Translations under genes and position numbers: made by a program
From: a virus
Lineage: Duplodnaviria > Caudoviricetes
Strand: one strand, 5' to 3'
DNA length: 64,000 nucleotides
IMG/VR virus record: IMGVR_UViG_3300014205_000008
Coordinates: 32,959 to 96,958 of that record
Notes under the pieces: model-generated
The model's database searches: none
What the model was told of the DNA's origin: nothing
The model's input: only the letters and a program-made list of their open reading frames with translations
Shown: in pieces, positions 51,585-52,321 of the stretch
Layout: each line of letters opens with the position of its first letter
Position numbering within the stretch: position 1 is the first letter of the stretch

Positions 51585-51759
51585 AACAACCTGATGAAGA
51601 TGAATATATAGGTAAATAAAACTCTGTAGCAATACTTAGATAATTTATTTACAAGTAAAATGTAAATAATACCCATACCACAAGCCGAAGTGGTGTTCAG
51701 ATGGATTTATGATAGAGCAAGTTAAATCAGCGCATTATACCTTGGCGAGGCAGGTTGTT
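51585..51759 (+). ncRNA. Structured RNA unit 1 of the array
   Basis: Closing AACAACCTG/CAGGTTGTT; GTA-GCAA-TAC GNRA loop; TTATTTACA/TGTAAATAA; TACCAC/GTGGTG; GATTTA/TAAATC. Confidence 0.55.
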
Positions 51760-51806
51760 TTTAAAATAGTGATCACCTAGCGTGAACTAAAAATGTAACA
51801 CTAGTA

Positions 51807-51875
51807 CCGAGATGTCGTATAGAAGGCCAATATCCACTTCGGTGGGGCGAAGGTTCGATTCCTTCCGCCTCGGCA
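51807..51875 (+). ncRNA. tRNA-like element C (anticodon loop replaced by a UUCG tetraloop)
   Basis: CCGAGATG TC GTAT AGAAGGCCA ATAT CCAC-TTCG-GTGG GGC GAAGG TTCGATT CCTTC CGCCTCGG CA. Confidence 0.7.
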
Positions 51876-51903
51876 ATACAGTTCTTAAAAATATTGAAAG
51901 CGT

Positions 51904-52072
51904 AGTAAAACTACTGTAATCAAAGTTTTTAGTGGTAAGACTTCAACAACCTATTCACATAAAAGTTTCGGACTGATGGATATGGGTGAAGTAATACCAA
52001 AACCAATGGAGATTGGGAGAAAATATTTGATTGATGATTAAGTGGTTGCATTTCTCAAACAGTAGTTTTACT
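51904..52072 (+). ncRNA. Structured RNA unit 2 of the array
   Basis: Perfect 14-bp closing stem AGTAAAACTACTGT/ACAGTAGTTTTACT; D-loop-like AAGTTTT-TAGTGGT-AAGACTT; CCAAT-GGAG-ATTGG. Confidence 0.55.
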
Positions 52073-52079
52073 TTTTATC

Positions 52080-52197
52080 TAAAAATATGTAGCACTGTTT
52101 ACATATGGTTCAAAGCCACGGGGTCCAGTCTTAAAAATAGTAATAGATTATAAGAAAGGGCAGCGCAATAGTTAGGAGGATGACCTACATATTTTTA
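52080..52197 (+). ncRNA. Structured RNA unit 3 of the array
   Basis: 13-bp closing stem TAAAAATATGTAG/CTACATATTTTTA; T-loop-like TGG-TTCAAAG-CCA; GTCC/GGGC and TCTTA/TAAGA. Confidence 0.55.
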
Positions 52198-52199
52198 AT

Positions 52200-52321
52200 G
52201 TTACAGTGGTGGAACGTAGACATTATTATCTGAAAGGCTGATTGTGATTTAGTTTCGATACTAAAATAGATTCTGGTGGCATAGGATCAGTCAATTACAG
52301 GTTCAAGTCCTGTCTGTAACA
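52200..52321 (+). ncRNA. tRNA-like element D (Leu-like D-arm, ~73-nt structured insert in place of anticodon/variable arms)
   Basis: Acceptor GTTACAG/CTGTAAC-A; D-arm GTG-GAACGTAGA-CAT; T-arm ACAGG-TTCAAGT-CCTGT; insert with GGCTGAT/ATCAGTC and TTTAGT-TTCGAT-ACTAAA. Confidence 0.7.

What the first reader, a model, noticed from the sequence alone, without database searches (positions are those of the whole stretch)
51585..52321. Five back-to-back structured RNA modules forming an RNA operon
Seen: in ~740 ORF-free nt, unit 1 (9-bp closing stem), mini-tRNA C, unit 2 (perfect 14-bp stem), unit 3 (13-bp stem) and tRNA-like D, with spacers of only 47, 28, 7 and 2 nt. Units 2 and 3 contain isolated D-loop-like (TAGTGGTA) and T-loop-like (TTCAAAG) hairpins. 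The units do not share sequence, so this is not CRISPR. Inference: a polycistronic ncRNA cassette cut by RNase P/Z/III into distinct effector RNAs, possibly RNA-based counter-defence (decoys, antitoxin mimics, sponges).
Basis: partly seen in the sequence, partly recalled or inferred. Interest (0 to 1): 0.82.

Follow-up and report, generated by a model that had tools for sequence, protein, structure and literature searches.

The report
Phage RNA island with tRNA mimics
A gene-free 0.9-kb stretch of an uncultured crAss-like phage holds two tRNA-shaped RNAs that cannot read codons and two tightly stem-closed RNA folds; it is probably one processed non-coding transcript, but nothing yet shows that it is made or what it does.

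Summary
Four of the five modules stand up. Module C (51808-51873) and module D (52200-52321) match the Rfam tRNA model just above its curated cut-off, yet neither has a decoding anticodon arm. C has a 4-bp UUCG-capped stub there, and D has a long irregular arm of about 57 nt. Unit 2 has a perfect 14-bp closing stem and folds far better than shuffles (z -4.2). Unit 3 has a perfect 13-bp stem and is moderate (z -2.0). Unit 1 is no better than chance. The stretch has no credible ORF under any stop-codon reading.

A third anticodon-less tRNA-like element (B) and a Hatchet ribozyme lie 2-3.5 kb upstream on the same strand. The early region is therefore rich in RNA-processing signals.

The cassette has no relatives. 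Phages whose downstream gene is 78-94% identical carry ordinary genes in its place, and no RNA data exist. Only a 393-nt piece (51607-51999) was seen, base for base, in a second study.

My best reading is a co-transcribed non-coding island in which the tRNA mimics serve as RNase P/Z cleavage sites, releasing stem-protected small RNAs. A counter-defence role is possible but untested.

This scan has noted anticodon-less phage tRNA mimics on other DNA before.

The parts
51425..52359 (+). ORF-free island between the last upstream ORF and the DUF6948 gene
   Evidence: ORF lists and stop-codon counts in six frames. Relatives have coding genes here.
51585..51761 (+). Unit 1: a 9-bp long-range stem enclosing two local hairpins. 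Weak; may not be a module.
   Evidence: Fold z -1.07. A 9-bp stem is expected by chance.
51808..51873 (+). Module C: a 66-nt tRNA-shaped RNA with the anticodon arm replaced by a 4-bp stem capped with UUCG. It has a canonical T-loop and a D-loop with GG. No CCA is encoded.
   Evidence: Rfam tRNA 29.3 bits, alignment. Per-genome E-value 1.8e-5. ARAGORN at default settings finds no tRNA.
51904..52072 (+). Unit 2: a 169-nt three-way-junction fold closed by a perfect 14-bp stem and a further 7-bp helix
   Evidence: z -4.18. The minus strand folds equally well (z -3.99).
52080..52197 (+). Unit 3: a 118-nt fold closed by a perfect 13-bp stem. Inside are a T-loop-like hairpin, a long hairpin and a GG-loop hairpin.
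   Evidence: z -2.02. Minus strand z -2.03.
52200..52321 (+). Module D: a 122-nt tRNA-shaped RNA with a 7-bp acceptor stem, D arm and T arm. The middle is an 11-nt single strand plus an irregular arm of about 57 nt instead of an anticodon arm.
   Evidence: Rfam tRNA 31.3 bits. The constrained cloverleaf is within 1.1 kcal/mol of the MFE. ARAGORN calls it only with a forced intron.
48381..48439 (+). Element B (outside the finding): a 59-nt tRNA-shaped RNA with no anticodon arm at all
   Evidence: Rfam tRNA 36 bits, per-genome E-value 2.5e-7.
49741..49872 (+). Hatchet self-cleaving ribozyme (outside the finding), the only one in the genome
   Evidence: Rfam RF02678 73.5 bits, cut-off 51.

Best explanation
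The island is transcribed with the + strand early genes as non-coding RNA, and host tRNA-processing enzymes cut it. Modules C and D keep the acceptor/T-arm 'top half' and the elbow of a tRNA but cannot decode. RNase P would cut at their 5' ends, and RNase Z or exonucleases at their 3' ends. That would free C and D as small stable tRNA-shaped RNAs. It would also free units 2 and 3 as RNAs of about 170 and 120 nt whose ends are locked in 13-14-bp helices. RNase P cleavage at D would leave unit 3 with a 2-nt 3' tail. Together with element B and the Hatchet ribozyme, this makes the early region a transcript punctuated by RNA-processing signals.

Shown here: the tRNA-likeness of C and D, the stems, the absence of ORFs, and the shared strand. 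Inferred: transcription, cleavage and stability. The released RNAs have no known target.
For: - The whole genome gives only five tRNA-model matches. Two are true tRNAs. The other three (B, C, D) all lack a decoding arm and all lie on the + strand within 4 kb.
- In B, C and D the acceptor stems (7/7, 6/7, 7/7 pairs), the T stems (5/5) and the T-loops are intact, while only the anticodon arm is missing or replaced. This is not the pattern of random decay.
- A, B, C and D are each followed by CAA after the discriminator base, whereas both true tRNAs are followed by CTA.
- Units 2 and 3 have the only perfect long inverted repeats in the 8 kb searched (46000-54000), and their folds beat shuffles.
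- No G+C-rich intrinsic terminator lies inside the island.
- A Hatchet ribozyme sits 1.7 kb upstream.
- The same stub design occurs in unrelated phage contigs (L282, L328, L329, L325). It has one compensatory acceptor-pair change and its own promoter-like and T-run flanks.
- Precedents exist. Plant mitochondrial t-elements direct RNase P/Z cuts (PMC1920247). MHV68 tRNA-like units release downstream hairpins via RNase Z (PMC3482243). RNase P processes phage C4 antisense RNA (PMC11143913).
Against: - The cassette shows no conservation. Relatives with a 78-94% identical downstream gene have unrelated coding genes upstream, and similarity starts only at about 52327.
- Seventeen loci encoding relatives of the upstream 228-aa protein contain no tRNA-like or Rfam RNA.
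- Covariation cannot be tested, because the only other occurrence found, 51607-51999 in a second study, is identical.
- C and D are barely above the tRNA cut-off, and their own folds are not more stable than shuffles.
- Units 2 and 3 fold equally well on the minus strand, so their stems could act in DNA.
- Nothing tRNA-like separates unit 2 from unit 3.
Confidence: 0.45

Rival explanations
1. The RNAs are effectors in their own right. The anticodon-less mimics titrate or block host proteins that grip the tRNA body, such as anticodon nucleases of defence systems, CCA-adding or modification enzymes, or RNase P itself. Units 2 and 3 act as sponges or decoys.
For: - A mimic without an anticodon loop could bind a tRNA-binding protein yet not be cut in the anticodon loop.
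- Three different designs occur in one phage.
- In L328 the same design stands alone between a promoter-like repeat and a T-run, as a separate small gene rather than an mRNA leader.
- The island lies in a hypervariable accessory region, which is typical of host-interaction genes.
Against: - No defence or target system is identifiable, and the host is unknown.
- The genome has no Ro/TROVE, RtcB or PTH2 partner.
- The units show no significant complementarity to the rest of the phage genome.
- There is no expression or conservation evidence.
Confidence: 0.2
2. Evolutionary debris. The elements are remnants of a former tRNA array and other sequence in a fast-turnover region. They may be transcribed but have no selected function.
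For: - The cassette is a singleton that close relatives lack.
- C and D are marginal tRNA-model hits.
- Unit 1 is at chance level.
- The UUCG-capped stub of C is identical to a common class II tRNA variable arm. C could therefore be a Leu/Ser-type tRNA that lost its anticodon arm.
Against: - Decay should also hit the acceptor, D and T stems, but these are intact in B, C and D.
- Two perfect 13-14-bp long-range stems side by side are improbable without selection (my estimate is about 0.015 expected per stem in this stretch).
- The shared CAA after four of four elements argues for a common constraint.
Confidence: 0.2
3. Units 2 and 3 act at the DNA level, as cruciform or hairpin-forming inverted repeats for recombination or replication, as protein-binding palindromes, or as miniature transposon-like insertions. 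They are not RNAs.
For: The closing stems are perfect Watson-Crick, and the folds score the same on both strands. The region is a recombination hotspot among relatives.
Against: - There are no target-site duplications and no second copy anywhere in the genome.
- Helices continue inside the units beyond the terminal repeats.
- The units are tightly packed between two + strand tRNA-shaped elements.
- The GC-skew turning point is at about 46 kb, not here.
Confidence: 0.1
4. The stretch encodes very small proteins (20-40 aa) that ORF thresholds miss.
For: Four ATG ORFs of 21-39 codons exist on the + strand. Phage early regions often hold tiny genes.
Against: These ORFs overlap the tRNA-shaped element or the long stems. 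No frame stays open, and there are 26-30 stops per + strand frame.
Confidence: 0.05

Closest known systems
t-elements of plant mitochondria (non-canonical tRNA-like processing signals; Forner et al. 2007, PMC1920247)
   Same: They are non-decoding tRNA-like folds that keep the T-arm motif. They are embedded in longer transcripts, and RNase P and RNase Z cut there to create RNA ends. The excised element can persist as a small RNA.
   Different: They are organellar, not phage. They flank mRNAs rather than other structured ncRNAs. Processing at C and D is not shown here.
MHV68 tRNA-like/miRNA transcripts (PMC3482243)
   Same: A viral tRNA-like unit lies directly upstream of hairpin RNAs, and RNase Z cleavage at the tRNA-like unit liberates the downstream hairpins.
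   Different: That is a eukaryotic Pol III system, and its downstream hairpins are pre-miRNAs. Here the downstream units are 120-170-nt multibranch folds in a bacterial virus.
Phage T4 tRNA operon with its extra small stable RNAs, and RNase P-processed phage ncRNAs such as P1/P7 C4 (T4 from my own knowledge; C4 in PMC11143913)
   Same: Phage non-coding RNAs are co-transcribed with or shaped like tRNAs and matured by host RNase P.
   Different: In T4 the neighbours are true decoding tRNAs. Here the tRNA-shaped members cannot decode. No sequence similarity was found in phage records.
YrlA (bacterial and phage Y RNA-like, Rfam RF02553)
   Same: It is a non-decoding RNA with a tRNA-like T arm and D arm held in a long closing stem. 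Unit 3 has the same order of elements: T-like hairpin, long hairpin, GG-loop hairpin.
   Different: The Rfam YrlA model finds nothing in this genome even at E-value 10, and no Ro/TROVE or RtcB gene is present. C and D have open acceptor stems, the opposite topology to YrlA.
Class II tRNAs (Leu/Ser) with a UUCG-capped variable arm
   Same: The 12-nt stub of C is identical to the variable arm of many bacterial tRNA-Leu and tRNA-Ser genes and sits just before the T arm.
   Different: Those tRNAs also have a full anticodon arm. C has only the one short arm, 66 nt in all.

Membership tests
Canonical tRNA (Rfam RF00005) | Covariance-model score at or above the curated cut-off of 29 bits | tested here: met
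   C scores 29.3 and D scores 31.3. B scores 36. C and D are marginal.
Canonical tRNA (Rfam RF00005) | A 5-bp anticodon stem with a 7-nt loop presenting an anticodon | tested here: not met
   C has a 4-bp stem with a 4-nt loop. D lacks the 3' strand of the stem and carries an insert of about 50 nt. ARAGORN at default settings calls neither. Its intron model for D is forced.
Canonical tRNA (Rfam RF00005) | Acceptor stem, D arm with GG, and T arm with a conserved T-loop | tested here: met
   Alignments and sequences.
t-element-type processing signal | A non-canonical tRNA-like fold containing the T-arm motif GGTTCRANYCC | tested here: met
   Both C and D contain it. The motif is as defined in PMC1920247.
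t-element-type processing signal | Transcript ends coincide with the ends of the element (RNase P/Z cleavage) | not testable with these tools
   No RNA run is listed for this DNA.
YrlA / Y RNA-like | Match to the family model, and an Ro (TROVE) partner | tested here: not met
   No RF02553 match at E-value up to 10, and no TROVE or RtcB gene.
tmRNA | A tRNA-like domain plus a tag reading frame | tested here: not met
   ARAGORN finds none at default settings. At a lowered threshold it finds only spurious calls elsewhere.
Retron ncRNA (msr-msd) | Flanking inverted repeats plus an adjacent reverse transcriptase | tested here: not met
   Inverted repeats are present, but the genome has no RVT_1 match.
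Known self-cleaving ribozymes within the cassette | Match to an Rfam ribozyme model | tested here: not met
   None in 51300-52500 at E-value up to 10. The Hatchet ribozyme lies outside, at 49741-49872.
CRISPR array | Repeated units separated by spacers | tested here: not met
   No direct repeats in the cassette.
MITE-like element | Terminal inverted repeats, target-site duplication and multiple copies | tested here: not met
   Terminal inverted repeats only. The flanks differ, and there is no second copy in the genome.

The most novel reading that the evidence does not exclude
The island is an RNA-only host-takeover or counter-defence operon. tRNA-shaped RNAs without anticodons occupy host proteins that recognise the tRNA body, such as defence anticodon nucleases or tRNA maturation enzymes. 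RNase P/Z cuts at these mimics release two stem-locked effector RNAs of a kind not yet described.
Probability: 0.15. Interest if true: 0.85.

Novelty: new variant of a known kind. Interest (0 to 1): 0.5.

Why it matters
Phage tRNA genes are normally read as codon-usage or anti-defence spare parts. RNAs that keep the tRNA body but are built so that they cannot decode point to a different use of the tRNA shape, as a processing handle or as a protein decoy.

If this island is really cut into discrete RNAs, it would be a compact natural case of tRNA-punctuated ncRNA production in a bacterial virus. It would also resemble the engineered 'tRNA scaffold', since D carries a 57-nt insert where the anticodon arm should be. 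That gives direct experimental handles: RNase P/Z assays and pull-downs.

As it stands, it is a well-shaped but unconserved singleton.

Tried and rejected
- **Alternative genetic codes:** no frame opens when TAG, TGA or TAA is read through.
- **Relatives of the cassette:**
  - No match in phage records.
  - No match by BLAST or nhmmer in about 200 loci around relatives of the two flanking genes.
  - No Rfam or tRNA-like hit next to relatives of the 228-aa upstream protein.
- **Exact-pattern scans:** the T-arm pattern hit only ordinary tRNAs. The UUCG-plus-T-arm pattern hit mostly class II tRNAs.
- **Model R1:** built on the L282-type mimics, it scores any tRNA, so it does not define a family.
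- **The look-up of encoding contigs:** The 84-96% identical relatives of the DUF6948 protein seen could therefore not be inspected in their contigs.
- **Sequencing runs:** no RNA holder is listed. Contigs of a second study are identical, so they give no covariation. One low-depth contig joint, 49423 to 52324, has only 25 nt on one side and is not relied on.
- **Partner genes:** PTH2, TROVE, RtcB and reverse transcriptase are all absent.
- **Antisense targets in the phage genome:** none beyond chance.
- **Sigma-70-type promoter scan:** uninformative, with fewer sites than in shuffles.
- **Replication origin:** rejected, because the skew minimum is at about 46 kb.

Full report
**Setting.** The window is bases 32959-96958 of a 96,958-bp virus record with direct terminal repeats. 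Its major capsid protein is 33-37% identical to those of Cellulophaga phage phi14:2 and gut crAss-like phages. Portal and terminase are recognisable. It is therefore a distant crAss-like phage. The DNA comes from a landfill metagenome, and identical pieces occur in a groundwater study. From about 46 kb onward, genes and GC skew switch to the + strand. The finding lies in this + strand block of small genes of unknown function.

- The 935 nt from 51425 to 52359 have no credible ORF. The longest open stretch on the + strand is 47 codons. Reading through TAG or TGA gives at most 55, and the few ATG mini-ORFs overlap the structured elements.
- The two long stems are exact: 14 bp (51904-17 with 52059-72) and 13 bp (52080-92 with 52185-97). 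They are the only perfect inverted repeats of that length in 46000-54000.
- By my estimate for 29% GC DNA, about 0.015 such stems are expected in 740 nt. Two side by side are therefore not chance. About two 9-bp stems are expected, so the closing stem of unit 1 is not evidence.
- The fold statistics agree. Unit 2 has z -4.18 (0 of 200 shuffles as good). Unit 3 has z -2.02. Unit 1 has z -1.07.
- The whole stretch folded as one piece is unremarkable.

**The tRNA-shaped modules.**
- Rfam's tRNA model matches 51808-51873 (C, 29.3 bits) and 52200-52321 (D, 31.3 bits). The cut-off is 29.
- Across the whole phage genome the model finds only five places. Two are true tRNAs, Glu and Met. The others are C, D and a third element B at 48381-48439 (36 bits, E-value 2.5e-7). 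All three odd ones are on the + strand within 4 kb.
- C has a 7-pair acceptor stem with one mismatch, a 4-bp D stem with a GG-containing loop, and a 5-bp T stem with a canonical T-loop. Where the anticodon arm should be, it has CCAC-UUCG-GUGG.
- D has perfect acceptor and T stems and a D arm. These are followed by 11 unpaired bases and an irregular hairpin of about 57 nt. A cloverleaf with that arm is within 1.1 kcal/mol of the free minimum.
- ARAGORN sees no tRNA at C or D by default. It calls D only with an arbitrary 29-nt 'intron'.
- B has no middle arm at all.
- None of the three can present an anticodon. All keep the acceptor/T-arm half and the elbow contacts.
- All of them, and the weaker element A at about 47243, are followed by CAA after the discriminator base. 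The two true tRNAs are followed by CTA.
- Intact stems with a selectively missing decoding arm look like design, not decay. This is an inference.

**Relatives.**
- The downstream gene (52360-52662, DUF6948) has hundreds of relatives.
- In metagenome contigs where it is 78-94% identical (L126-L131), DNA and protein similarity begin only at about 52327, a few bases after the 3' end of D. What lies upstream is unrelated protein-coding sequence.
- Relatives of the 228-aa protein upstream of the cassette occur in other phages of about 97 kb. They have no tRNA-like or other Rfam RNA nearby.
- The cassette is thus a singleton in a hypervariable accessory region. Covariation cannot be assessed. The only other occurrence found is a 393-nt contig (51607-51999) in a second study, and it is identical.

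**The same design elsewhere.**
- A pattern scan found 66-nt elements with the same layout and the identical stub in three related phage contigs with 43-45% GC (L282, L328, L329). A 70-nt version occurs in a 58% GC contig (L325). None is related to this phage.
- Between L282 and L328 one acceptor pair changes U-A to G-C.
- The element starts right after a promoter-like repeat that precedes every small gene there. In L328 it is followed by a run of T and the next promoter-like repeat, so it looks like a separate small RNA gene.
- Rfam scores the L282 copy at 53.8 bits.
- In bacterial genomes the same 12-nt hairpin is simply the variable arm of tRNA-Leu and tRNA-Ser. C-type mimics may therefore descend from class II tRNAs that lost the anticodon arm.
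- A model built on the three close copies scores ordinary tRNAs as well, so I do not claim one homologous family.
- Earlier notes of this scan describe anticodon-less phage tRNA mimics in many other genomes, often beside a PTH2-like gene. This phage has no PTH2.

**What it most likely is.**
- The region upstream also holds a Hatchet self-cleaving ribozyme (49741-49872, 73.5 bits), just after a 127-codon ORF.
- With three tRNA-shaped elements on the same strand, the simplest reading is a long early transcript that is cut at RNA-encoded signals. Hatchet cuts itself. RNase P and RNase Z cut at B, C and D.
- In the island this would release C and D. It would also release units 2 and 3 with their ends buried in long helices, since the 5' end of D is 2 nt from the closing stem of unit 3.
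- Precedents:
  - Plant mitochondrial t-elements (PMC1920247).
  - The MHV68 tRNA-like/hairpin transcripts cut by RNase Z (PMC3482243).
  - RNase P processing of phage ncRNAs (PMC11143913).
- I give this reading 0.45.

**Rival readings.**
- The counter-defence or decoy idea is compatible but has no positive evidence. I found no partner gene and no antisense target in the phage. The host is not identified.
- Debris remains a serious rival because conservation is lacking.
- A DNA-level role for the two palindromic units also remains a serious rival, because units 2 and 3 fold equally well on either strand.

**Other families checked and excluded.**
- Unit 3 has the element order of a Y RNA-like (YrlA) molecule. 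The YrlA model finds nothing, however, and there is no Ro gene.
- tmRNA, retron ncRNA, known ribozymes inside the cassette, CRISPR and MITE were each checked and not met.

**Verdict.** This is a real cluster of structured, non-coding modules. It contains four supported modules, not five, and two of them are non-decoding tRNA mimics. The 'RNA operon' is a reasonable but unproven model. It is a new variant of known tRNA-linked ncRNA arrangements, and it is a singleton without expression or covariation support. Interest 0.5.

Noticed in passing
window 49741-49872 (+): A full-length Hatchet self-cleaving ribozyme (73.5 bits), the only one in the genome. It lies just after a 127-codon ORF in the early region of a crAss-like phage.
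   Followed up: partly
window 48381-48439 (+): A 59-nt tRNA-shaped element with intact acceptor, D and T arms but no anticodon arm. It is the best-scoring of the mimics (36 bits).
   Followed up: partly
window 47311, 48440, 51874, 52322; compare 53597 and 44192: All four tRNA-like elements are followed by CAA after the discriminator base. The two true tRNAs (Glu, Met) are followed by CTA. None encodes CCA.
   Followed up: partly
L282:418-483(-), L328:3223-3288(+), L329:3562-3627(-), L325:847-916(-): Unrelated phage contigs carry tRNA-shaped RNAs of 66-70 nt with the identical UUCG-capped stub. In the first three the element starts right after a promoter-like repeat that precedes each small gene, and one compensatory acceptor-pair change is seen.
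   Followed up: partly
L238:724-834, L246:1257-1367 (+): Weak YrlA (Y RNA-like) matches (31 bits, cut-off 69) lie directly upstream of two tRNA genes in large (76 and 136 kb) AT-rich phage contigs. Similar sequence is present in L297, L315 and L321.
   Followed up: no
window 52685-52838 (+): A 12-nt-period tandem repeat encodes a Gly-rich (G-D/S/Y-G) run at the N-terminus of the 205-aa protein. Unrelated metagenome contigs pile up on it at very high depth, so it is a common low-complexity motif.
   Followed up: no
window 48111, 48948, 51648 (+) and six other sites: The 9-mer TTTACAAGT occurs 9 times against 1.7 expected (0 of 100 shuffles reach 9). Three + strand copies fall in ORF-free structured stretches of the early region.
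   Followed up: partly
window 50939, 52327, 53339 (+): A 17-nt AT-rich motif recurs with at most 1 mismatch. Two copies lie 33 and 56 nt upstream of ORF starts; the third lies in the gap after the 205-aa ORF, ahead of tRNA-Glu. Similarity to relatives begins at the 52327 copy. It may be a promoter or leader element.
   Followed up: no
L009:11196-11423 (+): A group I intron (66 bits) in a 128-kb phage contig that encodes a relative of the 205-aa protein.
   Followed up: no
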